64,000 bases of DNA from an uncultured bacterium (GTDB lineage Bacteria; Myxococcota_A; Polyangia; Polyangiales; Houyiibacteriaceae), in assembly GCA_938024995.1 (NCBI GenBank), contig CALJDU010000034.1, forward strand, positions 18,046-82,045, in the 5' to 3' direction. Below the pieces are notes generated by a model. The model searched no databases. It was not told where the DNA came from and was given only the letters and a program-made list of their open reading frames with translations. The position numbers and the translations under genes are program-made. Shown one piece after another: positions 6,442-28,779 of the stretch. How positions within the stretch are numbered: the first letter of the stretch is position 1; every line of letters begins with the position of its first letter.

Positions 6442-7347
6442 ATGAAATCGACGAAGACCGTCTTGGTTCAAGTGACCTCCTTGGCCCTCTTCTTGTTGCT
6501 GAGCGCGTGCCAGACCCGTGTCGACGAGTTGGAGAGCTTTTCCGCGCCTGCCGGGACGCGGCAAATCGCCAGCTTCGAGGGGACCGTCTTTGCGCAAACC
6601 GAGGACACCGTCTTTCGTCGAAACGACGATGGCTGGTCCGTGGACCGGTCAGCGAGGTGGAACGGTCCGTTCGTCGTTGCCGAGCTCGCGGACGGTCCGC
6701 GTCTTTGTATCGTGAGCTGGCGTCTCGACACGCGAGCGCATCCCCCTGGTCTCATCCTCGCGTGCCGCGAACCGCGTGGGTGGGAGGAAGTCCACGAGGA
6801 GCCAGAGTGGACACATCCCGTGACCGAGTGGAACCGCTGGGTTCCGCGTGACGACCCCTCCGGGTCGTATTGGTACCGCCTCGCTACCCAGGATCCCTAC
6901 GCCCCTGAGGAGAGACACTTACATCGCTATCCGACGTCGCCTCCTCCTCCGGCAATTCCTCCCGAGCTCGTTCCAGAGGATGGCCAGTACGGACCCGTCG
7001 CGGTTCTGCATGAGCGAGCCGCGGTCTGGGACGAGACGGAGTGCACGGACACAACGCGCGTCGGCGGCATCTGGCATGGAGAGACGGTCTGCACGGACTA
7101 CCGTCGCGAAGTCATCGTGAACGCGATGATGCAAGGTGAGGTGACGGAGCTGAGAATGACGGGGAGCGGCGCCTTGTGGTTCACGGGGAGCGTGACCGAG
7201 ACCGATGGTGAACTCTTGATCCTCTTCGAGGAGACTCTCGCGGACGACGATGCGACGCGGATCGTGCGTCTCCCCATTGGATCCCCGTCACGTTCAGCAG
7301 CAGGTCACGCCGTTGTTCAGCAAGCTGCCGACAGCGCTCCCGATTAG
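6442..7347 (+). CDS. Hypothetical lipoprotein
   Basis: MKSTKTVLVQVTSLALFLLLSACQ gives a signal peptide plus lipobox. I recognise no domain. Its 3' end overlaps the convergent MarR gene by 54 nt. Confidence 0.6.
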   Translation: MKSTKTVLVQVTSLALFLLLSACQTRVDELESFSAPAGTRQIASFEGTVFAQTEDTVFRRNDDGWSVDRSARWNGPFVVAELADGPRLCIVSWRLDTRAHPPGLILACREPRGWEEVHEEPEWTHPVTEWNRWVPRDDPSGSYWYRLATQDPYAPEERHLHRYPTSPPPPAIPPELVPEDGQYGPVAVLHERAAVWDETECTDTTRVGGIWHGETVCTDYRREVIVNAMMQGEVTELRMTGSGALWFTGSVTETDGELLILFEETLADDDATRIVRLPIGSPSRSAAGHAVVQQAADSAPD

Positions 7348-7755
7348 CGTGAGCGACTCCATCGCGGCGGCGCGCTTGTCTTCCGGTAACCGCGTGAGCA
7401 CCGCGCGAACCACGTCTTCGGTTCCCTTGCGCAGGCGCAGCGCCTCCTCGCGACCCGTGGGCGTGAGCGCCACGATCACGCGCCTTCGGTCGTCATCGTC
7501 TCGTCCGCGCACGACGAACTCGCGCTTGACGAGACCGTCGAGGAGGCGCGTCATCGCGCTCTTACTGACGCGCGCAGAGGTCGCGAGCGAAGAGACGTCG
7601 CGCGCTCCCGGCAGGAGCTCTTGAAGCGTCGTGCACTGCGCGATCGTCACGTCGCCGCAGCAAATCGCGTCGCGCTCAAGCGCTGTGAACAATCGACAAA
7701 GCTGCACCAGTTCGGTCGCCGCGTTCTTGATCTGCGTCTCTTCGGTCACGGTCAT
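7294..7755 (-). CDS. MarR-family winged-helix regulator, Cys-rich (6 Cys)
   Basis: Only the last 153 aa of ORF 7294..8331 are credible, starting at MTVTEETQ (ATG at 7755), 2 nt after the arsM stop. The wHTH strings are LATSARVSKSAMTRLLDGLVKREFVVR and RRVIVALTPTGRE. There is a vicinal Cys pair in AICCGDVTIAQC and a C-terminal ..GVTCC. Confidence 0.8.
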   Translation of the reverse strand: MTVTEETQIKNAATELVQLCRLFTALERDAICCGDVTIAQCTTLQELLPGARDVSSLATSARVSKSAMTRLLDGLVKREFVVRGRDDDDRRRVIVALTPTGREEALRLRKGTEDVVRAVLTRLPEDKRAAAMESLTLIGSAVGSLLNNGVTCC

Positions 7756-7757
7756 TC

Positions 7758-8609
7758 TCAGGAGGGTTTCGTCGCGGTGATGGAGTAGCTGTAGACGCTC
7801 TTGCGGAGGCGAGCCCGTGTCGCCTCGGGGAGGTCGAGGTCCGGAATGACGTTCGACTGCTCCGCGATCTCGAGGAGACCTGACGCGAGCGTTCGCGTAA
7901 AGGCGACGTCCACGAAGCCCGCCTCCTCGATGGCGCCGAGGTAGTCGTCTGCGAGCTCCGCGCCCGCGACGCAACCGACCCACGCCGCGACGCTCTTCTG
8001 AACAGACTCTGGGAGCGGCTCGGTCAAGAGGATGTCGCTGACCGCGAGGCGTCCCCCCGGGGCGAGCGCGCGGAACGCTTCGTGGAACACCGTCTGCTTG
8101 TCGGGGCTCAGGTTGATCACGCAGTTGGAGATGACGACGTCGACCTCTCCGTCGCGAACCGGGAGCGCCTCGATCTTTCCTTCGCGAATGTCGACGCGAT
8201 CCGACATGTCCGCGCTGACGACATTCTTCCGCGCCTTCGCGAGCATCTCCCGCGTCATGTCGACGCCGACCACGAACCCGGTCTCGCCGACCGCGCGGGC
8301 CGCGAGCAAGGCGTCGATCCCGGCGCCACACCCGAGATCGAGCACACGCTCACCCGACTTGAGCGTCGCGAAGGCGCCAGGGTTGCCGCAGCCAAGCCCG
8401 AGGTCCGCGCCGTCCGGGAGCGCAGCGAGGTCTTCTTTGGCGTAGCCCAAGTGCGCGCTGGACGGGCCGCAGCACCCGGCGCCATTGGACGCGGCGATTT
8501 TTCCGTAGGCCGAACGGACATCTTCGTGGGTCGTGTTCTTGGTTTGAGCGTGAGCCTTGGTCTCGGTGGGACAGCAGGTGGGGGCACAGCAGGTGGGTTG
8601 TTCGCTCAT
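7758..8609 (-). CDS. arsM: Arsenite S-adenosylmethionine methyltransferase
   Basis: It has the SAM motif VLDLGCGAGID. The Cys positions typical of ArsM are present: GAGCCGPS near the N-terminus, VISNCVINL and AWVGCVAG. An additional N-terminal TCCAPTCCP is present. GGAG lies about 6 nt upstream of the ATG. Confidence 0.85.
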   Translation of the reverse strand: MSEQPTCCAPTCCPTETKAHAQTKNTTHEDVRSAYGKIAASNGAGCCGPSSAHLGYAKEDLAALPDGADLGLGCGNPGAFATLKSGERVLDLGCGAGIDALLAARAVGETGFVVGVDMTREMLAKARKNVVSADMSDRVDIREGKIEALPVRDGEVDVVISNCVINLSPDKQTVFHEAFRALAPGGRLAVSDILLTEPLPESVQKSVAAWVGCVAGAELADDYLGAIEEAGFVDVAFTRTLASGLLEIAEQSNVIPDLDLPEATRARLRKSVYSYSITATKPS

Positions 8610-8677
8610 GATTTCTCCATGGTTTTAGGGTGTTTACACTGATTTGCTTGCCAACCAATATAGTCGCGAAAGCAAAC

Positions 8678-8694
8678 AGTTGTGTTGCACAACT
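8678..8694. promoter_or_regulatory. Perfect 7-3-7 palindrome (AGTTGTG ttg CACAACT) in the AT-rich arsM upstream region; candidate operator
   Basis: The palindrome was read directly from the sequence and sits 69-85 nt upstream of the arsM ATG. It lies within the only conspicuously AT-rich stretch nearby (8610-8770). No binding data exist, and no convincing -35/-10 pair could be assigned. Confidence 0.35.
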
Positions 8695-8770
8695 AATATG
8701 GAGGCGGTCGAGACAAAGCGCAAGGCTTGGGGAGAAGAAGCGTGGTTCGTGTGGGTTTGTCTTCGCTCGG

Positions 8771-11227
8771 TTACTCGAAGAACCACTCGTCCACACCGGT
8801 ACCGAAAAACGTGCGCGGACCGGGGTCCCAGTTTTTCAAGGTGGGGTCGACCAAGACGCGCTCCGCCGCGAAGACGAGCGGTATCCGAGGCGTCGATTCA
8901 GTTGTCTTGAGCGCGATCGCGCGTCGCAGCTCACGCCGTCGCTCCGGGTAGAGCGTGTGACGCTCGCGTTCGATCATCGCGTGTACCTCGTCGGTATACG
9001 AGCTCGTCCGCAGGTCGCTGGGGTAGTCGCCGTCCACGAGCGGGAGGTTCCACAGACCGCGGGGGTCGTCAGTGGGGAGGAGCGCGTCGACGTACGTGAG
9101 GAGGCCCCCGTGCTCACGCGCGCGACGAACGCGGGCTTCACTCGCGACGATTCGGTGGTCGACGCGCCAACCGACCGCTTCGAGGTTCTCTTTGAGGATC
9201 CCGATCATCACGCGTGTGACGGGCGAGTCGTTTGAGGAGAGCGGGAGCACCTCGCCCGCCGCGCCGATGCGCTCGAAAAAAGCCCGCGCGGCTGCCGGAT
9301 CGTATGGCACGCGCGGAGCTTCGGGCGGCGCCTCGCCCATGAAGGGACCATGCGCGACACGACCGGCGTCCCCGTAGAGCTCGCGCGCGATGCGCTCTCG
9401 GTCGATCGCCATCACCAGCGCGCGGCGGACGTCCGGTCGCGCGAGCCACGGGTTGTTGTCGACATCCGGGATCAAGAGGACGAGCAAGTTTGAGCTTCGA
9501 ATATGAGCCGCTTCCGGTCGCGTCTCTGCGACCCGCCGCGCCTGTTCCAAAGTGACGCTGTTGGGCCAGGTGAGATCGACCTCGCCTGCGAGGAACGACG
9601 CGATCAGCGCCTCGCGGTCGTCGAAGTATTTTACCTCGAGCCGTTCGATGTTCGGGGCGGGTCCGAGGAAGTGCTGGTTGGGTGCCATCACGAGATGGTC
9701 ATCATCGACCCACTCGATGAGCTCGTAGGGTCCTAGGGTCGGCGCTGGGGTCACGCGGCGATACTGTCGGACGGCGTCGTAGCCGCCTTCATCGTAGATC
9801 GACTCGACGACGTGCGAGGGCCATGGGTGCGGCGCCTCGAGCGCGTCAGAGACGCGTCCATCCCACGTGATGATGAGCGTTCTGTCGTCCGGGGTCTCGA
9901 CCTTGACGACGTGCGGAGTGGGGCTCGCTTCGTAGGGAAGCGAGAGGTCCCGCGCGACGATCGGCTGCCCGTCCGACCACTTCACCCCTTCGCGAACCTT
10001 CCACGTGACCTGCAGCTCGCCGCCCGCCGGGAACGCGAGGGCGTCGTTGTCGACCGCGGGGCGCTGCTCCACGAACACCGGGATCGGCTCCGCGCGACCG
10101 TCCCGTCGCAGGCCAGGCATGAGCGACCAGACCGCTCCGCGCGACACCGGCGATGACAGCGCGCTCGGCATCCGGGTGGTTCCGATTCGGATGACGTCGC
10201 GCGACGTCTCGTGACGCAGGAGCTCGGGGAATTCGGATGGAGGCTCCGGTGGGTCGAGCAGTGGTTCTGGAATCGCCGTGAAGACCGCGAGCAGGGAAGC
10301 CGCGGGGAGCAGAACCTGGGCGGCTCGATCGAGACGCGAGGACCAGCGCGGTTTCTCTCGTCGGAAGAAGGCGTACGTCACGATGGTGGTGATCAGCGCG
10401 GATGCGCTCGTGACGTACGCGATGATGAACAGGAGGTCCGCGAGCGTGACGTACGAGACGTCGGGCAGGTTCTTGGCGACCGTGAACTGAAACGCGAAGC
10501 AAGAGAGCAGGGCGGTCACGCCGATCGATGCGCGCGGCCCGATGACGTCCGGGTGCAAGAAGAGCGCGACGATCGAGACCAGCACGATGATCGCGAGCGG
10601 CAAGAAGAGCTTGAGGGCGACCGGCGCGATCGGGCGCGTCATCTTCACGCCGTACGCCACGCGGTGAACGGTTGAGGGTTTGCCTTCGTTCGCGATCAGG
10701 CCGAGGTCGGATTGCACGATCTGCGTTCCGACTTCCGGCAAGAAGGTGTCCTCGTAGAGCCAGTCCGTGACGCTGAAGGAGTCGTTCATCCCGCTGCTCG
10801 CGAGGTCGGGGACCAGCGTCCCGTAGTGCTCCGGCAGCTCGAAGACGATCCGCACGACCTGGTCGTCATAGGGGAAGCGCTGCATCGGGAACTCGCCGCG
10901 CAAGGTCCCGCGGATCCGATAGCGGGCGCTGTGCCAACTGGAGTCCGACTCGTTCCCGAGGGCGATGCGTTCGATGCGGGAGGCGTTCGCGACTCGGAGC
11001 TGCTCCGGATCAAAGTCGCCCTGCCACTTGATCCAGACCTCCGCGTCGACGTCGAAGACCCCGTCCTTGAGTTCGAAGCGGCTGACGTCGTGGAGGTACA
11101 CCCCCACGTAGATGTTGCGGTTCGGCTCTGCGCTGGCCGGTTTGGTCGTGACGAGGAGCGCGCTGGTGATCACCAGCGCGCAGACGAAGAAGCGATAGAC
11201 GAGCCACGCCGTGCCGTCGCGCTTCAC
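8771..11227 (-). CDS. Fusion protein: pentameric ligand-gated ion channel (pLGIC) ectodomain plus 4 TM, with a C-terminal ABC-type family-5 solute-binding domain
   Basis: The signal peptide is ..[12 protein letters not shown]. The ectodomain has [32 protein letters not shown] and the Cys-loop-equivalent [20 protein letters not shown]1 is [20 protein letters not shown]2 is [16 protein letters not shown] followed by [18 protein letters not shown] (TM3), and a fourth TM is [18 protein letters not shown]_bac_5-like strings follow: [72 protein letters not shown] and [20 protein letters not shown]. The GTG start overlaps the pyrD stop. Confidence 0.8.
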
Positions 11228-12228
11228 AGTCTCGCCGCCAATCGCCGCGCGTGGAGCGGGCCCCCGTAGATGAAGCTCGTATAGACCTGGACGAGCGTCG
11301 CGCCGCCGTTGAGCCGGTCACGTACATCTTGTGCGTTCTCGATGCCGCCCGCGGCGACCAGGGTGAGCGCGCCACCCACCCGCGTGGCGAGTCGCTCGAG
11401 GACCTCTTGGGAACGCTGTTTTTGTGGGGCGCCGCTGAGCCCCCCGCGACCGATCGCGTCGACGACGTTTGCCGGGGTGGCGAGACCGGCTCGAGACGTC
11501 GTGGTGTTCGTCGCGATGATGCCGGCGAGTTTTTGTTCGAGCGCGAGGTCGGCGATCGCGTCGACGTCATCATTGGCGAGGTCGGGCGCGATCTTGACCA
11601 GGAGCGGGACCTCACGTGACGCGCTCCTGTGCGACGCGTCGCGGACCGCGGCGAGGATCGGGCGAAGCGAAGAGACCGCTTGCAGATCGCGCAGACCCGG
11701 CGTGTTCGGTGAGCTGACGTTCACAACGAGATAGTCCGCGTAGGGGGCTACCCGTTCGGCGCTGGTCACGTAGTCGGCGACCGGATCCTCCGCGAGCTTG
11801 GACTTCCCGATGTTGACGCCGACCAACGCGCGGCGCTTCTTGCTGAGGCGCGGGACCGCGTCGGCGCTCCCGCGGTTGTTGAAGCCCATGCGATTGATCA
11901 AAGCGCGGTCGCGAGGGAGGCGAAAGAGGCGCGGCGTTGGGTTGCCTTGTTGCGCGAGCGCGGTGAGCGTGCCGACCTCGATGAAGCCGAAACCGAGCGC
12001 GCCGAGCATCTCGAAGGCCTGCGCGTCTTTGTCGAAACCGGCCGCGAGCCCGATCGGGTTGTTGAACTGGAGGCCGAACGCCGAGACCGGCTTCTTCGCC
12101 GTGAGGAGCGGACGCAAGACCGACGGCAACGGCGTGAGCTGCGCACCGCGCATCGCGCTCATCGCGAGGTGATGCGCGCGCTCGGCGGGGAGCCTGAAGA
12201 GCAAGGGGCGGATCACGCGGTAGAGCAC
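11224..12228 (-). CDS. pyrD: Dihydroorotate dehydrogenase (quinone), class 2
   Basis: It has the N-terminal membrane-association helix [20 protein letters not shown]. Other matching strings are [37 protein letters not shown]-like [15 protein letters not shown] and GIIATNTT. Confidence 0.92.
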
Positions 12229-23314: not shown

Positions 23315-24661
23315 CTAGTCGAAGAGCTTGCGGATCTTCGTGAGCAGGCGCTTGGGTCGCGTGTTCCTCTTTCCGATCCGCTTGCTCAGCCGCGCCACGC
23401 GTCGCGCGTCCTCGCCGAGCTCGCGCGCGGCCGCCGCGTGTTCCCACGCCTTCGAGAGGTCCTTCAGCCGGTGTTCGTAGAGCTTGCTCAGCTCGACGCG
23501 CACGAAAAGCTGACGGTCGCGGGTGTCTTCGGCCGAGGCGCAGAGCGCGTCGAGCAGAGCGCGTTCCTCTTGGTCCGCTTGAAGCGCGACGCCACCGCGG
23601 CGCGCGACCCGGGCCGCGAGGAGATGCGCGTCGACCGCGGTGTCCGCTTTGCCGGCGCCCGCCGCGGCGGCGGCGGCAAAGGCGAGGGCGCGCTTGGGAT
23701 CGCCCGCGCGTTCGGCGACTCGCGCGTATGACAAGTGATCGCGGGGATCGTCCTCGCGGTTGACGCCCTCGAAGTGATCATTGAGCCACCCGAGCAGCGC
23801 AGCGAGCGCGATGAGGTCGTTCCCGTTGTGCTCGATGACGCCTTGCATCGGTTGGGGATCGCCGCCGCGCAAGAACGTGGTGTAGACGCCGGGGATCTCG
23901 GCGCCGCCGATGTCGTCCACGCGCGTCATGCCGAGGACCTCTTCCTCCATGTTGACGAGCCGCACGGACTCCATGCGTCGCTTGAACACGCGGCGTGAAC
24001 AGTGAAGCAAATCAAGGTGCGGCGGGAGGACGGGGGCCTTAACGCGGTTCATCACGTAGCGCGATCGCAACAGCGGCCAGTCGAAGCTCTTTCCGTTGTA
24101 GCTGACGACGCACGACGCCCACTCGATCCGCTCCTTGAGCGCGTGCAGCATCGGCGGCTCTCGGCCGAGCTCGGTCAGCACGTACTGCTGGACGCGTAGG
24201 GACTCGTCCTCGAACCACGCGGCACCGATCAAAAACGGGATCGTTCCCGTGCCGCCGGAGAGCCCGGTGGTCTCGGTGTCGATGAGAAGCATTCGCTTGA
24301 AGTCGACGTTCTCGAAGACAGGGTCGATCGCGAGCGTCGCGACGGTCTGAGGATCGACGGCGAGCGCGCGGACGACGGGCGTATCACCGTGGTGGTGCGC
24401 GGGCTCAAGATAGGTGTCGACGAGGTGCATTGGCCCATGCGCGGTCTCGACGCGATCGCCAGGCAGCGCCCTGACCCGTGGCGCGCGTCGCACCGGACCG
24501 CGCGCGCGGAGCTCGCTTCGCCCGCTCGAGATGAGCTCACTGATCGCGCTGCGCATCTTTCGGATCCGCGCGTCCTTCTCGGTCCGCTCTGGTTTGACGA
24601 GCGCGCGCGAACCGGGGCCTGCGTTGCCGAGCCGCGCGAGCTTCTTTCCGATCCGGCTCAT
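23315..24661 (-). CDS. RNase H-like DEDDh exonuclease with C-terminal TPR-like region (YprB/MrfB-like)
   Basis: I moved the start to the ATG at 24661 (MSRIGKK), because the track start at 24829 overlaps the upstream helicase. Exo motifs are LLIDTETTGL, SYNGKSFDWPLL and HNGNDLIALAAL. The C-terminal half is helical and Ala-rich. It lies 43 nt downstream of the helicase gene. Confidence 0.75.
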   Translation of the reverse strand: MSRIGKKLARLGNAGPGSRALVKPERTEKDARIRKMRSAISELISSGRSELRARGPVRRAPRVRALPGDRVETAHGPMHLVDTYLEPAHHHGDTPVVRALAVDPQTVATLAIDPVFENVDFKRMLLIDTETTGLSGGTGTIPFLIGAAWFEDESLRVQQYVLTELGREPPMLHALKERIEWASCVVSYNGKSFDWPLLRSRYVMNRVKAPVLPPHLDLLHCSRRVFKRRMESVRLVNMEEEVLGMTRVDDIGGAEIPGVYTTFLRGGDPQPMQGVIEHNGNDLIALAALLGWLNDHFEGVNREDDPRDHLSYARVAERAGDPKRALAFAAAAAAGAGKADTAVDAHLLAARVARRGGVALQADQEERALLDALCASAEDTRDRQLFVRVELSKLYEHRLKDLSKAWEHAAAARELGEDARRVARLSKRIGKRNTRPKRLLTKIRKLFD

Positions 24662-24704
24662 CGCGCTTCGACTTGCGCTTCGACACGGTCGGGACGCGCG
24701 AGCA

Positions 24705-27110
24705 CTAGTGCACCGCCGGGACGCCGACTGCATCGAGGATCGCGAGCGTGAGATCGAGACGTTCGCGGGTGGGTCCACCTTCGGGTTCGACCCCGGCGTC
24801 CGGACCAATGCACGCGGGGCATCCAACACCGCAGTCGCAGCGCTCGATCACGACGCGGGTTCGGCGGAGCAGCGCGTCGCGCTCCTGAAAGAGCCGGGAG
24901 GCCAGACCGATTCCGCCCGCGACGCGATCAAAAAGAAAGAGGGTGGGGTCGAACCCGCGCGCCGAAGGTTCGCCGGCTTCGCCGTCTTGGAGCGTTCGTC
25001 CGAGGTCTCGCGGGTCGACCATCAAGCCGACGGTCGCGACCGTGTGCATCGCGTTGAGGATCCCGCGAAGCGCATCGATCACCGCGGGGCGGCGAACCGC
25101 GGCGCGCTCCAGCATCGTCGCGATGAAGTCCTCGGGGAACGTCAGCCAGAACGACGTCGTGTGCATTTGCATCTCGGGCAGGTGGACGTCGCCGTATCCC
25201 ACGTTCTCGTGGGTGTGGTACTTGATCTTCTTGTAGCCGACGACCTTCTCGACCACCGAGACCTCGCCCATCGCCGCGGGGAGCGCCACCTTCAGGTTCA
25301 GACCCGCGCCCTGATCTTGCTCCATGATCCGGACGTCGGTGTGGGTCATCGCGGTGGTGTAGTAGTCGGGCTTCACGCGGCGCACGTACGCTTTGTGGTT
25401 GTCGAAATCGAGCCGCTCGACCTGGAACTGCGCGCCCGCGTGTTGGTAGATGGCTTGCTCGTGAAGCATCGTGTGCGTACTGCGCCAGTCCATCTCCGCG
25501 ATGGTCTTGTCGGTGTCGAGATCGATCACGACGAAGTTGTCCCACCCGACGTTACGCAAAGAGACGTGATTCGCGGGATAGGCGTCGGTCGCCCAGTGAT
25601 AGGTGGAGCCGCCCGAGGCGTTCGGCGCCTCGTGGACGATTTCGTGATGCGCGAGGAACCCGAGCGCGTCCTTGAGCGAATCGATGGGGAGGTCGCCGAA
25701 GCGGTCGCCGTCTTCAAAGGGAAGCTCGAAGGCGGCGCACTTCAAGTGCTGGATCAGGATCTCGACATTGTCGGGGTCGATGCGGGCGTGCTCGATCGAG
25801 GCGTTCGTCAGCTGTTTCGGATCACGCGCGATAAACTGGTCGAGCGGGTTGCTTGAGGTCACGAGGACGCCGAGCGACTTCCCTTCACGGCGGCCGGCGC
25901 GGCCGAAACGTTGCCACGTGCCCGCGAGCGTCCCCGGGTATCCCGCGCAAATCACCGCGTCGAGTGAGCCCACATCGATACCGAGCTCAAGCGCGTTGGT
26001 CGCGACCACACAGCGGATGTCTCCCGCACGGAGGCTCCTTTCAATCGCGCGTCTCGCCTTCGGCAAGTACCCGCCGCGATACGCATGGATCATCGATGCG
26101 TCCAAGCCGTCCTGAGTGAAGCGATCGCGGAGGTACTTGAGCATGACCTCAACGCCGTTGCGGCTCTGGCCGAACACCAACGTGGGCACCTCGGCTTTTA
26201 CGAGGTCGGTGGCGAGACGAACGGTCGACTTGAGGTAGCTCGCGCGGATGCCGAGCTCGCGGTTCACGACGGGCGGGTTGTACACGAGCACTCTTCGCGC
26301 GCCGCGCGGTGCGCCGTTCTGATCGACGACCTCCACTTCGCGCCCCATGACGCGCGCGCCGTGCTCACGCGGGTTTCCAATCGTCGCGGACGCGCCGATG
26401 AAGACGGGGTCGCTCCCGTGGAAGCGCGCGACGCGGATCAAGCGCCGCATCACGTTGGCCAAGTGCGAGCCGAATACGCCGCGATAGGTGTGGAGCTCGT
26501 CGACCACGATGTAGCGCAGGTTCGCGAAGAGCCGCGCCCACGAAGCGTGATGCGGGAGAATGCCGGCGTGCAACATGTCGGGATTGGTGATGAGGACACC
26601 GGACCGCTGCCGCGCGACCCGGCGAGCGTCACCGGGGGTGTCGCCGTCGTATGTGATCGCGCCGTGGGCGAGATCCGCGTCCTGAAGAAAGCCGCGCAGC
26701 GACTCCTCCTGGTCGCGGCTCAGCGCCTTCGTGGGGAAGAGGTAGAGCGCGCGGGCGTCGTGCTCTTTCGCGAAAGCGTCGAGGACGGGGAGGTGGTAGC
26801 AGAGGCTCTTGCCGGACGCGGTCGGCGTGGCGACGACGAATGACTTCTTATCGCGGCCAAGTTCGAACGCGCGGGCCTGGTGCGAGTAGAGCTCGGAGAT
26901 GCCCCGCTTGACGAGGGCGTCTTTGACCTGGGGCGCGAGGTCGCTCGGGATCGGCGCGTACTCAGCGGGGACCGCGGGTTCCACGTGATCAAAAACGACG
27001 CTCTTCCGAACACGTCCCTTGTCCCACTTGGTCAACACGGACTCGAGGCCACGCGGAGAGGCCCACGGGAGGTCGGGCTTCGAGGTGAACGCCAGGCTCT
27101 TGTCGCTCAC
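24705..27110 (-). CDS. DEAD/DEAH-box helicase with C-terminal DUF1998/MZB zinc domain (YprA/MrfA-like)
   Basis: It has motif I ATPTASGKS, motif II VVDELHTYRG and motif VI QRFGRAGRR. The C-terminal Cys cluster is IERCDCGVGCPACIG. I chose the GTG start at 27110 (VSDKSLAF), which has GAGAGG 6 nt upstream. The track's additional 268 N-terminal residues are low-complexity Ser/Ala/Arg. Confidence 0.85.
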   Translation of the reverse strand: MSDKSLAFTSKPDLPWASPRGLESVLTKWDKGRVRKSVVFDHVEPAVPAEYAPIPSDLAPQVKDALVKRGISELYSHQARAFELGRDKKSFVVATPTASGKSLCYHLPVLDAFAKEHDARALYLFPTKALSRDQEESLRGFLQDADLAHGAITYDGDTPGDARRVARQRSGVLITNPDMLHAGILPHHASWARLFANLRYIVVDELHTYRGVFGSHLANVMRRLIRVARFHGSDPVFIGASATIGNPREHGARVMGREVEVVDQNGAPRGARRVLVYNPPVVNRELGIRASYLKSTVRLATDLVKAEVPTLVFGQSRNGVEVMLKYLRDRFTQDGLDASMIHAYRGGYLPKARRAIERSLRAGDIRCVVATNALELGIDVGSLDAVICAGYPGTLAGTWQRFGRAGRREGKSLGVLVTSSNPLDQFIARDPKQLTNASIEHARIDPDNVEILIQHLKCAAFELPFEDGDRFGDLPIDSLKDALGFLAHHEIVHEAPNASGGSTYHWATDAYPANHVSLRNVGWDNFVVIDLDTDKTIAEMDWRSTHTMLHEQAIYQHAGAQFQVERLDFDNHKAYVRRVKPDYYTTAMTHTDVRIMEQDQGAGLNLKVALPAAMGEVSVVEKVVGYKKIKYHTHENVGYGDVHLPEMQMHTTSFWLTFPEDFIATMLERAAVRRPAVIDALRGILNAMHTVATVGLMVDPRDLGRTLQDGEAGEPSARGFDPTLFLFDRVAGGIGLASRLFQERDALLRRTRVVIERCDCGVGCPACIGPDAGVEPEGGPTRERLDLTLAILDAVGVPAVH

Positions 27111-27243
27111 GAGCGACCTCTCTTCGAGCGTGCTTGAGCGATTCGGTGCGCGCCTGCCAACATGCGCAGGACTGTACGGACGCACAGGCTGGCGATCAAC
27201 AGACACTTCCGCGGAGGAGCACGATTTGCCATAACGAAGGCTG

Positions 27244-28779
27244 GTGCGCTGGTGTTGGATATGCCTGGTTTTTGCCTGCGGGACGGCTGAGGCCCCCGTC
27301 GAGGCACCCGCTGAGGAGACGCGTCCTGCGAATGTGCTCGTCGAGCAAGCCGACCCGTCGTCCGAACCAAGCGCGGTGACGGAGGTCGCTCCGGCAATCG
27401 TCGCCGCGGGAGCTCCCGAAGAAGAAGAAGCTGCCGAGGCCGGTCCTGACGGCGATGCAACGCTCGATGCAACGCTCGATGCAAGGCGCGACGCAATGGT
27501 TGAGACGCACCCGCTCGCTGCAGAGCTGACGCCGGTTCGCGTTTCACTCTCCGCCGGGAACGTGATCGCCGATGGGTTGGCGATCCGCGACGGCGAGTTC
27601 GCGCGACCCACTTGCACGTCGCCTTCTGAGCCGATCCCCGGGACTGTCTTTTTTCGTTCGTCGACCGAGGTCTGCACGACCGAGGGCGACCCCGTGGAAG
27701 TGGAACATGTCGTCGCGACAGCTGAGCGTGCCCTCCTGGTCGCGAAGGGGCGCTGGGTCACGTTGGTGACCCCTCGCGGAACGAAGCGCATTCGCACGCG
27801 ACCCCTTTGCGCACCGGACTGCGAGCGCGCCGCGGTGAGCGATGACGGGCGCTCGATCTTGATCGAGCGAGGTCGCCGCCTGGAGCTGATCGACGGGCGA
27901 CGGGGTCGACGCACGACGTTGACGAAAGCGCGCCCGGGCGTCGCGCCGCTGACCTCGTTTCAGTATCGACGCGGGACGTTCTTCGCGCGCCGGCTTGGGC
28001 TCTACGAAGTGATGACGGGTCGTAAGTTGAGCCGAACGACTCGCCAAGCGCGGCCTCGTGACGCGGACGGGATCGCGTTCTCGCCACACGGGAACTGGTT
28101 GGCGTTTGCCGCCCGAGACGATTCCAGTCGACTGGTCCGGGTACGCAACGGCGCGGACGTCCACGTCACTGAAGACCCAGTGGACCGTTTCCTGTTCTCG
28201 GAGGATGAGTCGCGCTTCGTGATGCTTCATGGAGATCGCTATCGCGCGCTCACGTTGGGCCGAGCGCGACGGCTCAGTCCGGACAGCGCAGGCTCGGTAC
28301 CGCGCCCGACCGAGCTCTTGCCCGATGGCTCCGCGTTCCTGTCGTGCGTCTCCGGTCACGTCGCGCTCACGGACGTCACGACCAGCGCGCGTACCGAGAC
28401 ATCGATCGCGTGTCAGGGGCTACCTTCGGTTTCGCGGGATGGTCGCTGGGCGCTCGTTGGGAACGTTCTCAGCGCGCTCCCTTCTGGGCCCGTCTTGCGC
28501 TTCTTCGCGGGACCGCTCCCGACCAGTGAGCCTCCGACCGAAGAGGCGGAAGCTACGGACGAATCAACGGCCGATGGGTCCGGCGACGAAGAGCGCGATG
28601 ACGAGTCGACCGAAGGCGCGGATGAAGCCGCGGAGCCCGCGCTCGTGCCGCACCTTGTTGTGGTCGACTCTCGCGATCGCGTCGCGCTGTTTCCAGAACG
28701 TTCCAGCGTTCCCGGCAGAGACGGCGCAGAGGTCACCGTGACATCGATCCGTTCGCTCTTGGGCGGCGCGGTCGACTGA
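27244..28779 (+). CDS. Lipoprotein with TolB/WD40-like beta-propeller strings and acidic C-terminal tail
   Basis: The GTG start gives MRWCWICLVFACG (lipobox). Blade-like strings are IAFSPHGNWLAFAARDDS, LFSEDESRFVMLHGD and SVSRDGRWALVGN. The tail is Glu/Asp-rich: EEAEATDESTADGSGDEERDDES. Confidence 0.6.
   Translation: MRWCWICLVFACGTAEAPVEAPAEETRPANVLVEQADPSSEPSAVTEVAPAIVAAGAPEEEEAAEAGPDGDATLDATLDARRDAMVETHPLAAELTPVRVSLSAGNVIADGLAIRDGEFARPTCTSPSEPIPGTVFFRSSTEVCTTEGDPVEVEHVVATAERALLVAKGRWVTLVTPRGTKRIRTRPLCAPDCERAAVSDDGRSILIERGRRLELIDGRRGRRTTLTKARPGVAPLTSFQYRRGTFFARRLGLYEVMTGRKLSRTTRQARPRDADGIAFSPHGNWLAFAARDDSSRLVRVRNGADVHVTEDPVDRFLFSEDESRFVMLHGDRYRALTLGRARRLSPDSAGSVPRPTELLPDGSAFLSCVSGHVALTDVTTSARTETSIACQGLPSVSRDGRWALVGNVLSALPSGPVLRFFAGPLPTSEPPTEEAEATDESTADGSGDEERDDESTEGADEAAEPALVPHLVVVDSRDRVALFPERSSVPGRDGAEVTVTSIRSLLGGAVD

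What the first reader, a model, noticed from the sequence alone, without database searches (positions are those of the whole stretch)
8771..11227. Pentameric ligand-gated ion-channel body fused to a C-terminal family-5 solute-binding domain
A single uninterrupted 818-aa ORF combines two modules. The first is a signal peptide, a pLGIC-type beta-sandwich ectodomain ([13 protein letters not shown] loop) and four TM helices, including the LP.VSY.T..D TM2-TM3 signature. The second is a complete-looking SBP_bac_5 (Opp/Dpp/Nik-type) periplasmic binding domain. In pLGICs the end of TM4 faces outward, so both ligand-binding modules would be periplasmic, and the fusion is topologically coherent. As I recall, the prokaryotic pLGIC accessory domains described so far are N-terminal additions. 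A C-terminal family-5 SBP suggests a channel gated or tuned by a captured peptide, opine or metal ligand. That would be an unexplored signal-to-ion-flux coupling in bacteria.
Basis: partly seen in the sequence, partly recalled or inferred. Interest (0 to 1): 0.7.

Follow-up and report, generated by a model that had tools for sequence, protein, structure and literature searches.

The report
Ion channel fused to solute-binding domain
This gene encodes a complete bacterial relative of nerve-cell receptor channels with a full nutrient-capturing "binding protein" attached to its outer C-terminal end, a conserved but unstudied design in uncultured Myxococcota that probably lets a captured molecule control ion flow.

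Summary
ORF 8771-11227 (-) encodes 818 aa in five parts: a signal peptide; a complete pLGIC body (β-sandwich ectodomain plus four TM helices; profile match to GLIC residues 6-311 of 317, E~1e-41 to 5e-44; model TM 0.81-0.82 to GLIC); a 26-residue Pro-rich linker; and a complete cluster-C (family 5) solute-binding fold (Pfam E=7e-39; TM ~0.7 to NikA, AppA, OppA and DppA). It is not an assembly artefact. At least 174 proteins carry both modules, always channel then SBP, and 42 independent loci have intact ORFs. Nearly all come from uncultured Myxococcota. The fused forms make one clade in a channel-domain tree. The channel half is the best-conserved part. Linker length is fixed at 24-28 residues. 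The SBP half has no close stand-alone relatives, and no ABC-transporter gene is a conserved neighbour. In the literature I could search, accessory domains of prokaryotic pLGICs are N-terminal only; databases call these proteins "hypothetical" or "ABC transporter substrate-binding protein". Most likely this is a homopentameric channel gated or modulated by its tethered SBP. The ligand, ion selectivity and coupling route are untested. The window protein lacks the acidic pore rings that most of its relatives have. Verdict: new variant of a known kind, interest 0.6.

The parts
8771..11227 (-). Whole fused gene, 818 aa plus stop codon, GTG start
   Evidence: ORF list. Identical protein P0001 is present in public assemblies. 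GC3 0.84.
11129..11227 (-). Predicted signal peptide, residues 1-33 (basic K2/R3, hydrophobic helix 5-26, A-S-A before E34)
   Evidence: Read from the sequence. AF2 predicts a helix at 5-26. This is the least conserved region (0.28), as expected for a signal peptide. Cleavage is inferred.
10634..11128 (-). pLGIC ectodomain (β-sandwich), residues 34-198. Includes W65/W68, the Pro-loop F118-P119-Y120-D121, loop B E130-L131-P132..G136, an extended near-invariant loop C S173-D174-L175-G176..E181-G182, and pre-M1 R198-P199
   Evidence: Profile match to the GLIC ectodomain. Fold match at TM 0.81-0.82. Strands at 38-197. Column conservation.
10274..10633 (-). Four-helix channel domain M1-M4, residues 199-318 (helices 200-223, 229-253, 259-289, 293-318) with a short basic M3-M4 loop
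   Evidence: PF02932 above its cutoff. phmmer matches to GABA-A, GlyR and GLIC TMDs at E~1e-11. AF2 helices.
10469..10543 (-). Pore helix M2, residues 229-253: G230 (-2'), P231 (-1'), R232 (0'), T238 (6'), L241 (9'), A245 (13'), K252 (20')
   Evidence: Register fixed by the alignment to GLIC E222...P247. Family column counts.
10196..10273 (-). Post-M4 linker, residues 319-344. Pro/Ala/acid-rich coil of conserved length
   Evidence: Length is 24-28 residues in 116 of 116 homologues, and 25-26 in 107 of them. Sequence conservation is low at 0.44. Coil with pLDDT 84-95 in the full-length model.
8774..10195 (-). Complete cluster-C (SBP_bac_5) solute-binding module, residues 345-818
   Evidence: Pfam E=7.2e-39. 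Foldseek target-normalised TM 0.62-0.74 to whole OppA, AppA, NikA, NikZ and DppA chains. The nearest stand-alone SBPs are only 23-29% identical.
11224..12228 (-). Upstream pyrD (dihydroorotate dehydrogenase). Its TGA stop overlaps the GTG start by 4 bp (GTGA). This is genomic context, not part of the system
   Evidence: Pfam DHO_dh E=1.7e-79. Sequence of the junction. pyrD is adjacent in only 6 of 42 loci.
8677..8695 (-). Terminator-like hairpin followed by a T-rich tail, 76 nt after the stop codon (weak evidence)
   Evidence: Consensus scan found 1 site against 2.9 expected by chance in the region. Only its position is suggestive.

Best explanation
The gene encodes one subunit of a (probably homo-)pentameric ligand-gated ion channel of the bacterial Pro-loop type. 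After the signal peptide, the GLIC-like ectodomain and the M1-M4 pore domain are all intact.

M4 ends on the periplasmic side. There it continues into a stiff, length-conserved Pro-rich linker of about 26 residues and then a complete Venus-flytrap solute-binding module of family 5 (cluster C). The assembled channel would therefore carry five tethered SBPs around its periplasmic ectodomain.

Proposed mechanism (inferred). A periplasmic small molecule is captured by the SBP; candidates by family are a peptide, a metal chelate, an opine or an oligosaccharide. The open-to-closed movement of the SBP is passed to the channel, either by contact with the ectodomain (the near-invariant, extended loop C is a candidate docking site) or through the post-M4 linker at the ECD-TMD interface. 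That shifts the gating equilibrium, so ligand occupancy is converted into ion flux and a change in membrane potential.

What is shown: both folds, their order, the topology by homology, conservation of the gating and pore elements, a single origin for the fusion, and the absence of ABC-transporter partners nearby.

What is inferred: pentamer formation, ligand binding by the SBP, coupling to gating, and ion selectivity. The window protein has G at -2', P at -1', R at 0' and K at 20', which looks anion-channel-like. Most relatives have E/D at -2' and D at 20', which looks cation-channel-like.
For: Complete channel body:
- Profile match to GLIC residues 6-311 of 317, E 1e-41 to 4.5e-44.
- Fold TM 0.81-0.82 to GLIC.
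- 2958 pLGIC relatives found by exhaustive phmmer with residues 1-335, aligned across the ECD and TMD.

Gating and pore elements are invariant or nearly so among 116 homologues at 41-54% identity: P119, D121, R198, P199, P210, R232 (0'), T238 (6'), L241 (9'), A245 (13'), P255, Y259.

The channel half is more conserved than the SBP half: ECD 0.73 and TM2 0.75 against SBP 0.60.

Complete SBP fold.

The fusion is ancient and maintained:
- 174 of 174 two-module proteins have the order channel then SBP.
- All fused forms make one clade in the channel tree.
- Members only 26-31% identical in the channel half still carry SBP_bac_5.
- Intact ORFs in 42 loci.

Linker length is fixed at 24-28 residues while its sequence drifts.

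The full-length AF2 model has pTM 0.86 at pLDDT 93. By the definition of pTM, two confidently folded modules of 475 and 343 residues with an undefined mutual orientation would give only about 0.6. The model therefore places the modules in a defined arrangement (my inference).

The SBP lineage has no close stand-alone relatives; the next hits are 23-29% identical. No ABC permease or ATPase, nor any other gene, is a conserved neighbour in 42 loci; the best is pyrD in 6 of 42.

Precedent: related pLGICs carry N-terminal SBP-type domains, namely Peripla_BP_6 and NMT1_3 (Tasneem 2005, PMC549065). Post-M4 can contact the ectodomain and matters for function in some pLGICs (PMC9260303).
Against: There is no functional data of any kind. 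No ligand can be assigned: the best NCBIfam SBP hits (NikA/Opp-like) are far below their curated cutoffs, and structural neighbours are only 15-20% identical and spread over many specificities.

The pentamer was not modelled, and a monomer model may dock the SBP onto a surface that is really a subunit interface. I had no coordinates or PAE, so the SBP-channel contact site is unknown.

The covariation analysis gave no inter-module signal: 45% of the top pairs are inter-module against a 45% background.

Post-M4 is dispensable in muscle nAChR (PMC9260303), so coupling through M4 is not guaranteed.

The ectodomain's own loops B and C are highly conserved. The ECD may therefore bind the true agonist itself, with the SBP only modulatory.
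Confidence: 0.6

Rival explanations
1. Hand-off or concentrator model. The tethered SBP does not gate the channel allosterically. It captures a dilute periplasmic ligand and raises its local concentration, or passes it on, and the canonical orthosteric site between ectodomains is the real agonist site. Tasneem et al. proposed this idea for PBP domains fused to or operonic with bacterial pLGICs.
For: The ectodomain is the most conserved region (0.73). It has near-invariant loop B (E130-L131-P132..G136) and loop C (S173-D174-L175-G176..E181-G182), as expected if it still binds something. The proposal is made explicitly in PMC549065.
Against: SBPs of this class typically engulf ligands with high affinity and release them only when a partner pries them open. 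A family-5 pocket (peptides, chelates, oligosaccharides) and a pLGIC orthosteric pocket (small amines or acids) would have to recognise the same molecule. The fixed linker length and the confident inter-module placement (pTM 0.86) suggest a defined complex, not a freely swinging collector.
Confidence: 0.17
2. Anchor model. The protein is functionally an ABC-transporter substrate-binding protein, as databases annotate it. The pLGIC body serves merely as a pentameric membrane anchor, comparable to lipid-anchored or TM-fused SBPs such as those of OpuA and GlnPQ, and delivers substrate to an importer encoded elsewhere.
For: Source annotations read 'ABC-type transport system substrate-binding protein' or 'peptide/nickel transport system substrate-binding protein'. 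The SBP fold is complete.
Against: The pore-lining and gating residues (0' R, 6' T, 9' L, 13' A, Pro-loop P-x-D, pre-M1 R-P, M2-M3 P) are invariant, and the channel half is more conserved than the SBP half. That is not expected of a mere anchor. No ABC permease or ATPase gene appears as a conserved neighbour in 42 loci or anywhere near the gene in this window. The SBP lineage is only 23-29% identical to the nearest stand-alone SBPs. The database names are automatic transfers from the Pfam or COG hit.
Confidence: 0.1
3. Structural or adhesive accessory. The SBP module has lost small-molecule binding and acts as a protein-protein or cell-envelope interaction domain. It could, for example, bind peptidoglycan fragments or hold the channel at a particular site. 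Alternatively it acts as a constitutive modulatory domain comparable to the Ca2+-sensitive NTD of DeCLIC.
For: The SBP half is very divergent from all stand-alone SBPs. DeCLIC shows that accessory periplasmic domains can modulate gating without being classical agonist sensors (PMC9897478, PMC12664993). MppA, a murein-tripeptide binder, is among the structural neighbours.
Against: The complete two-lobe fold matches both liganded and unliganded SBP structures at TM ~0.7. Conservation of 0.60 across about 475 residues indicates that the whole clamshell is maintained.
Confidence: 0.1
4. Artefact. A sequencing or assembly frameshift joined two neighbouring genes, a pLGIC and an SBP.
For: One relative (L051, a 2x-coverage contig) is called as two genes, P0127 and P0266. 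This shows that frameshifts do occur in such data, but there the error split a fused gene; it did not join two genes.
Against: There are 174 two-module proteins from many independent assemblies and 42 intact ORFs at DNA level, including a closed 9.07-Mb chromosome (L007). Linker length is conserved, and the identical protein occurs on two contigs.
Confidence: 0.01

Closest known systems
GLIC (Gloeobacter violaceus proton-gated pLGIC) and other stand-alone bacterial Pro-loop receptors (ELIC, sTeLIC)
   Same: The channel body has the same complete subunit fold and length: an ECD β-sandwich without an N-terminal helix, a Pro-loop F/Y-P-x-D, a pre-M1 Arg, four TM helices, a short M3-M4 loop, and the 6' T / 9' L / 13' A pore. 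The profile match to GLIC residues 6-311 has E~1e-41, and the fold TM is 0.81-0.82.
   Different: Only about 20% identical. GLIC ends a few residues after M4, whereas this protein continues for 500 residues. Loop C is 9 residues longer and nearly invariant. The window protein has G where GLIC has its selectivity-filter E222 (-2').
Prokaryotic pLGICs with N-terminal periplasmic-binding-protein domains (PBP-I fusions of Tasneem, Iyer, Jakobsson & Aravind 2005)
   Same: The concept is the same: a bacterial pLGIC covalently joined to an SBP-type clamshell in the periplasm. Such proteins are among the nearest non-fused-clade relatives found here: P0187 (Peripla_BP_6 plus channel) and P0192 (NMT1_3 plus channel) (PMC549065).
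   Different: In those proteins the SBP lies between the signal peptide and the ectodomain, so it sits on top of the ECD. It belongs to other SBP classes (type I Peripla_BP_6, or type II NMT1-like). Here the SBP is family 5 (cluster C), follows M4, and is attached at the membrane-proximal periphery of the TMD.
DeCLIC (Desulfofustis pLGIC with a two-lobed N-terminal domain)
   Same: A bacterial pLGIC with a large extra periplasmic domain that modulates gating. It is the only accessory-domain pLGIC with solved structures (PMC9897478, PMC12664993).
   Different: The DeCLIC accessory domain is N-terminal, is a β-jelly-roll-like fold and not an SBP, and senses Ca2+.
Ionotropic glutamate receptors (AMPA/NMDA/kainate; bacterial GluR0)
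   Same: The functional logic is the same: closure of an SBP-type clamshell around a ligand is mechanically coupled to opening of an ion pore.
   Different: There is no relationship in the pore. iGluRs are tetrameric with a K-channel-like pore inserted within a type-II SBP. Here the SBP class differs and the assembly would be pentameric. This is an analogy only, not membership.
SBP-fused ABC importers (OpuA, GlnPQ) and SBP-dependent sensors (for example the family-5 chitin-binding protein CBP acting on the kinase ChiS)
   Same: These are precedents for covalent tethering of an SBP to a membrane protein, and for family-5 SBPs acting in signalling as opposed to transport (bioRxiv 10.1101/2025.04.22.650076, listed; OpuA and GlnPQ from my own knowledge).
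   Different: The partner is an ABC translocator or a histidine kinase, not an ion channel.

Membership tests
Pentameric ligand-gated ion channels (Pro-loop/Cys-loop superfamily) | Extracellular ten-stranded β-sandwich ligand-binding domain preceding the TMD | tested here: met
   Strands at 38-197 in the AF2 models. The profile aligns to the GLIC ectodomain from residue 6. Whole-subunit TM is 0.81-0.82. Pfam PF02931 itself did not hit.
Pentameric ligand-gated ion channels (Pro-loop/Cys-loop superfamily) | Pro-loop motif (F/Y-P-x-D) and pre-M1 Arg at the ECD-TMD interface | tested here: met
   F118-P119-Y120-D121 and R198-P199 are present. P119 and D121 are invariant even when outgroup pLGICs are included. 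R198 is invariant in the family. They align with GLIC P120-F121-D122 and R192.
Pentameric ligand-gated ion channels (Pro-loop/Cys-loop superfamily) | Four TM helices with an M2 pore helix carrying 6' Thr/Ser and 9' Leu and the M2-M3 loop Pro | tested here: met
   PF02932 scores 36.3 bits, above its cutoff of 28.1. T238 is present in 115 of 116 sequences, L241 in 105 of 116 and P255 in 116 of 116. Helices at 200-223, 229-253, 259-289 and 293-318.
Pentameric ligand-gated ion channels (Pro-loop/Cys-loop superfamily) | Assembly as a pentamer with a central pore, and ligand-gated conductance | not testable with these tools
   Only monomer prediction was available. This needs AF-Multimer or cryo-EM together with electrophysiology or flux assays.
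NCBIfam NF033918 LGIC_1 / TIGR00860 LIC (named pLGIC subfamilies) | Score above the curated whole-protein cutoff | tested here: not met
   LGIC_1 scores 54.7 bits against a cutoff of 500. LIC scores 48.6 bits against a cutoff of 280. The protein is a superfamily member but belongs to no named subfamily.
Bacterial extracellular solute-binding proteins, family 5 (cluster C; Opp/Dpp/Nik type) | Match to PF00496 above the gathering score | tested here: met
   134.4 bits against a cutoff of 32.4, E=7.2e-39, residues 405-703.
Bacterial extracellular solute-binding proteins, family 5 (cluster C; Opp/Dpp/Nik type) | Complete bilobed fold of about 480-520 residues with the extra domain typical of cluster C | tested here: met
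   Foldseek target-normalised TM is 0.62-0.74 over whole chains of OppA, AppA, NikA, NikZ, DppA, GbpA and others, with 502-589 alignment columns.
Bacterial extracellular solute-binding proteins, family 5 (cluster C; Opp/Dpp/Nik type) | Encoded with, and serving, an ABC importer (permease and ATPase genes in the operon) | tested here: not met
   No conserved neighbour of any kind appears in 42 loci within ±8 kb. No ABC components lie near the gene in the window. A distant partner cannot be excluded.
Bacterial extracellular solute-binding proteins, family 5 (cluster C; Opp/Dpp/Nik type) | Membership of a specificity-defined equivalog (NikA, OppA, DppA, CntA, SapA and others) | tested here: not met
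   The best is Opp5A_nikA at 46 bits against a cutoff of 600. All others are lower.
Accessory-domain prokaryotic pLGICs as described so far (Tasneem 2005 class; DeCLIC) | Extra sensor domain located between the signal peptide and the ectodomain (N-terminal) | tested here: not met
   The ectodomain starts directly after the signal peptide, at about residue 34. The extra domain follows M4, at residues 345-818. This is the same idea with a different attachment point and a different SBP class.
Ionotropic glutamate receptors | Tetrameric P-loop pore inserted into a type-II SBP clamshell | tested here: not met
   The pore domain is a pLGIC four-helix bundle. The resemblance is functional analogy only.

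The most novel reading that the evidence does not exclude
The tethered family-5 SBP is the primary agonist sensor of the channel. Clamshell closure on a periplasmic ligand opens a pentameric Pro-loop channel through a route never described for this superfamily, acting from the C-terminal, post-M4 side onto loop C or the ECD-TMD interface. That would be a bacterial, pentameric counterpart of the iGluR principle. Within the same family, the pore charge rings have switched between cation-type (E/D at -2', D at 20') and anion-type (G-P-R, K at 20', as in the window protein). The same sensor would then drive depolarising or hyperpolarising outputs in different Myxococcota.
Probability: 0.35. Interest if true: 0.8.

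Novelty: new variant of a known kind. Interest (0 to 1): 0.6.

Why it matters
pLGICs are among the best-studied allosteric membrane proteins, yet all known regulation enters through the ectodomain, the TMD lipid face, the intracellular loop or N-terminal add-ons. A conserved clade with a 475-residue ligand-binding clamshell attached after M4 would matter in three ways.

1. It offers a natural system for asking whether and how the M4/post-M4 periphery can drive gating. The role of post-M4 is a debated point in the field (PMC9260303).
2. It is a modular, possibly re-engineerable ligand-to-ion-flux biosensor, because family-5 SBPs recognise peptides, metal chelates, opines and sugars.
3. It hints at fast electrical or ionic signalling in Myxococcota, which are social, predatory bacteria.

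It also corrects a systematic mis-annotation: these proteins are labelled "ABC transporter substrate-binding protein". The within-family difference in pore charge rings gives a directly testable prediction about ion selectivity.

Tried and rejected
- Pfam PF02931 (Neur_chan_LBD) gave no hit even at E<=10. The ectodomain was instead established by a family profile against the PDB and by fold comparison.
- The search for related loci with the single protein found nothing in genome contigs. The alignment-based scan then worked.
- Neighbourhood clustering of ORFs in 42 loci looked for an ABC permease or ATPase, a kinase or any other conserved partner. None emerged. The top clusters were spurious antisense or overlapping ORFs inside the gene itself, and the best real neighbour was pyrD in 6 of 42 loci.
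- MI-APC covariation between the channel and SBP halves on 164 sequences (Neff about 131) was uninformative. Inter-module pairs were not enriched, and the top pairs were near-invariant columns driven by a few divergent sequences.
- The afdb50 fold library was unavailable, so I could not survey AFDB for the architecture.
- P0266, an apparent stand-alone close relative of the SBP half, turned out to be the 3' part of a frameshift-split fused gene. P0121 and P0127, apparent stand-alone channels inside the fused clade, are fragments.
- Ligand assignment from NCBIfam equivalogs and structural neighbours was rejected as unsupported. All hits are far below cutoff or only 15-20% identical.
- Eight literature searches found no description of a pLGIC with a C-terminal SBP. 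Hu et al. 2020 (PMC7306758) is not held.
- The promoter and terminator scan gave only one weak terminator-like hairpin, fewer than expected by chance in the region.
Full report
OBSERVATION

The window carries an uninterrupted ORF at 8771..11227 on the minus strand, 818 aa with a GTG start. Its GC3 is 0.84, like the other real genes of this 65-67% GC window. The GTG overlaps the TGA stop of an upstream pyrD gene by 4 bp (GTGA).

Pfam finds SBP_bac_5 at residues 405-703 (E=7.2e-39) and the pLGIC transmembrane family PF02932 at 209-302 (36.3 bits against a gathering score of 28.1). NCBIfam LGIC_1 covers residues 108-309 (E=1e-14). A series of Nik/Opp/Dpp-type SBP models hit the C-terminal half, and all of these are far below their curated cutoffs. 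phmmer against PDB sequences finds GABA-A, GlyR and GLIC chains over residues ~93-318 (E down to 3e-12) and an SBP (4wed) over 499-675.

IS THE CHANNEL BODY COMPLETE?

Pfam's ectodomain model did not hit, so I tested the ectodomain separately.

- An exhaustive phmmer search with residues 1-335 against 1.84 billion representatives gave 2958 hits (752 at E<=1e-10). Many are stand-alone proteins of 305-350 aa aligned over query ~13-320.
- A profile built from N-terminal halves plus such stand-alone relatives (A2) matches GLIC from residue 6 to 311 of 317 at E=1e-41 to 4.5e-44.
- An AF2 model of residues 1-335 (pLDDT 93.1) superposes on whole GLIC subunits with TM 0.81-0.82 and rmsd ~3.0 A over 314 columns.

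The GLIC alignment fixes the landmarks:
- Pro-loop F118-P119-Y120-D121, equivalent to GLIC Y119-P120-F121-D122.
- Pre-M1 R198, equivalent to GLIC R192.
- M1 P210.
- M2 residues R232 (0'), T238 (6'), L241 (9') and A245 (13').
- M2-M3 P255 (23') and Y259.

All of these are invariant or nearly so in 116 homologues.

IS THE SBP COMPLETE?

The full-length AF2 model (116-sequence alignment A1) has pLDDT 93.2 and pTM 0.86. After a coil at 319-344 it shows an alpha/beta fold spanning 345-818. Foldseek against the PDB returns whole cluster-C SBPs at target-normalised TM 0.62-0.74 and only 15-20% identity. These include T. thermophilus OppA, YliB, AppA, NikZ, NikA, DppA, GbpA, AgaA and MppA. The fold is complete, but the specificity cannot be read off.

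IS THE FUSION REAL AND MAINTAINED?

A word-indexed search with the whole protein found 178 relatives. At least 120 are 780-850 aa long at 41-54% identity and 95-99% coverage, from NCBI, ENA, JGI and Logan assemblies. A scan of one genome per GTDB species found 49 loci. All are MAGs and nearly all are Myxococcota: Polyangiales, Polyangiaceae, Sandaracinaceae and Myxococcaceae. They include a closed 9.07-Mb chromosome. A few carry labels such as Rickettsiales or Verrucomicrobiales, which are probably binning errors. In 42 of 42 loci with enough sequence the ORF is intact, with a median of 822 aa.

Members only 26-31% identical in the channel half (P0194, P0198, P0204) still carry SBP_bac_5. In a neighbour-joining tree of the channel domain all fused proteins form one clade. 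The only "unfused" members inside it are P0121 and P0127. P0121 is a fragment. P0127 is the 5' piece of a gene split by a frameshift on a 2x-coverage contig, and its 3' piece is P0266. A single old fusion, kept ever since, is the simplest reading.

SIGNS OF FUNCTIONAL INTEGRATION

- The channel half is the better conserved half. Mean top-residue frequency is 0.73 for the ECD, 0.71 for TM1 and 0.75 for TM2, against 0.60 for the SBP. That is hard to reconcile with a mere membrane anchor.
- The post-M4 linker is Pro/Ala/acid-rich and poorly conserved in sequence (0.44). Its length is nevertheless 24-28 residues in all 116 sequences and 25-26 in 107 of them. It behaves like a spacer of defined length.
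- The SBP half has no close stand-alone relatives. In a search with residues 345-818 everything above ~37% identity belongs to the fused family, and the next hits are 23-29% identical (this search is word-index limited).
- No neighbouring gene is conserved. In ±8 kb of 42 loci the best is pyrD in 6 loci, and no ABC permease or ATPase cluster appears.
- In the window itself the neighbours are pyrD, an ArsM-like methyltransferase, MarR, TetR, UPF0014, an aldehyde dehydrogenase, a GMC oxidoreductase and a fatty-acid hydroxylase. None of the other ORFs I sampled is an ABC-transporter component.
- pTM 0.86 for a two-module chain implies a confidently predicted mutual arrangement. With d0 of about 9.7 A for 818 residues, two well-folded but mutually undefined modules of 475 and 343 residues would give about 0.6. 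This is my inference from the definition of pTM. I had no coordinates or PAE, and a monomer model may use surfaces that are buried in the pentamer.
- The ectodomain's loop B (E130-L131-P132..G136) and loop C (S173-D174-L175-G176..E181-G182) are nearly invariant. Loop C is also 9 residues longer than in GLIC. It is a candidate ligand site or SBP docking site.

TOPOLOGY

By homology with GLIC, the ectodomain and the end of M4 are on the outer side.

PORE CHARGE RINGS

Position 230 aligns with GLIC E222, the -2' selectivity-filter glutamate. It is E/D in 94 of 116 family members, and position 252 (20') is D in 94 of 116. That is a cation-channel-like pattern. PMC9897478 notes that acidic rings at the cytoplasmic mouth mark all known cation-selective pLGICs. 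The window protein instead has G230-P231-R232 and K252, which resembles the P-A-R arrangement of anion-selective GlyR and GABA-A channels. K or R at 20' occurs in only three sequences, and all three have G or Q at -2'. An acidic D227 at -5' remains. Anion preference for this particular protein is therefore a low-confidence, testable inference.

MECHANISM

Best supported (about 0.6): a homopentameric pLGIC whose five tethered SBPs act as ligand sensors or modulators. Clamshell closure would be relayed to the gating machinery through an SBP-ectodomain contact, through the post-M4 linker at the ECD-TMD interface, or both. Post-M4 can contact the ectodomain and is important in some pLGICs but dispensable in muscle nAChR (PMC9260303), so this route is plausible but not assured.

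Rivals:
- The SBP concentrates or hands off ligand to the orthosteric site (about 0.17). This is the idea of Tasneem et al. 2005 (PMC549065).
- The channel body is only an anchor for an ABC-transporter SBP (about 0.1). Conservation and gene context argue against it.
- The SBP is a non-ligand structural or modulatory module (about 0.1).
- The fusion is an artefact (about 0.01). The comparative data refute it.

COMPARISON WITH WHAT IS KNOWN

The channel body is a bona fide Pro-loop pLGIC, and GLIC is its closest solved relative. It reaches no curated NCBIfam subfamily cutoff. The SBP is a bona fide family-5 (cluster C) fold, but it fails the "serves an adjacent ABC importer" criterion and every specificity equivalog.

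The idea of an SBP fused to a bacterial pLGIC is not new. Tasneem et al. described N-terminal PBP-I fusions and operonic PBP-II proteins, and such N-terminal fusions (Peripla_BP_6, NMT1_3) are among the nearest outgroup relatives here. What is new is the attachment point (after M4), the SBP class, and a distinct, sizeable, Myxococcota-restricted clade.

Papers from the DeCLIC groups state that prokaryotic pLGIC diversity involves N-terminal domains. Eight full-text searches found nothing on a C-terminal SBP. This library lacks many subscription-journal papers, and Hu et al. 2020 was not readable. Public annotations read "hypothetical protein" or "ABC transporter substrate-binding protein".

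VERDICT

The architecture is real, ancient and under selection as a unit. Its function as an SBP-controlled channel is a well-motivated inference awaiting a pentamer model, ligand screening and electrophysiology. Novelty: a new variant of a known kind. Interest: 0.6.

Noticed in passing
window 10469-10543 (-), residues 230, 231 and 252; family alignment A1: The pore charge rings differ within the family. 94 of 116 members have E/D at -2' (the position of GLIC E222) and 94 of 116 have D at 20'. The window protein has G at -2', P at -1' and K at 20'. K or R at 20' occurs in only 3 sequences, all with G or Q at -2'. This suggests a cation-to-anion selectivity switch in a minority lineage.
   Followed up: partly
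window 11224-11227 (-): The GTG start of the fused gene overlaps the TGA stop of pyrD by 4 bp (GTGA), which implies co-transcription and translational coupling with a pyrimidine-biosynthesis gene in this genome. pyrD is adjacent in only 6 of 42 related loci, so the linkage is probably incidental.
   Followed up: partly
full-length model m992795aecf83 compared with N-half model m8761aea18d6e, residues 111-120 and 251-260: In the full-length AF2 model, confidence dips to pLDDT 65 and 69 exactly at the Pro-loop and the M2-M3 loop, which form the gating interface. The same blocks score 93 and 91 when the channel half is modelled alone. This may reflect placement of the post-M4 linker or SBP near that interface, or merely the different alignments used.
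   Followed up: no
L051 2967-4043 and 4001-5650 (ena:ERZ25072999 ctg238657_2x): A relative is called as two overlapping genes: P0127 (358 aa, a channel with a junk tail) and P0266 (549 aa, starting inside M4). This is a frameshift on a 2x-coverage contig that mimics a stand-alone channel plus a stand-alone SBP.
   Followed up: yes
P0187, P0192 and about 13 other representatives: Among the nearest pLGIC relatives outside the fused clade are proteins of 600-730 aa with N-terminal SBP-type domains (Peripla_BP_6/ANF_receptor; NMT1_3) in front of the channel. SBP-channel fusion has therefore arisen at both ends of the channel in related lineages.
   Followed up: partly
loci L004, L005, L017 (labelled Rickettsiales) and L039, L047 (labelled Verrucomicrobiales): A few MAGs carrying the gene have taxonomic labels far from Myxococcota, although the protein is 38-50% identical to the window protein, within the range of the Myxococcota-labelled loci. 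These are probably mis-binned or mislabelled contigs and not horizontal transfer.
   Followed up: no
window 7294-8609 (-): Directly downstream on the same strand lies a SAM-dependent methyltransferase with a Cys-rich N-terminus (MSEQPTCCAPTCCP...), which is ArsM-like. It is followed by a MarR-family regulator. Neither is conserved next to the fused gene in other loci.
   Followed up: partly
window 23315-27914 (-): A 1069-aa DEAD/Helicase_C protein with a C-terminal MrfA Zn-binding (MZB) domain is followed by a 504-aa RNase_H_2-superfamily protein. This pair resembles the MrfA/MrfB DNA-repair helicase-exonuclease system.
   Followed up: no
window 8677-8695 (-): The only terminator-like hairpin in the 4.3-kb region scanned lies 76 nt after the stop codon of the fused gene. 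The scan found fewer sites than expected by chance, so this is weak evidence.
   Followed up: partly
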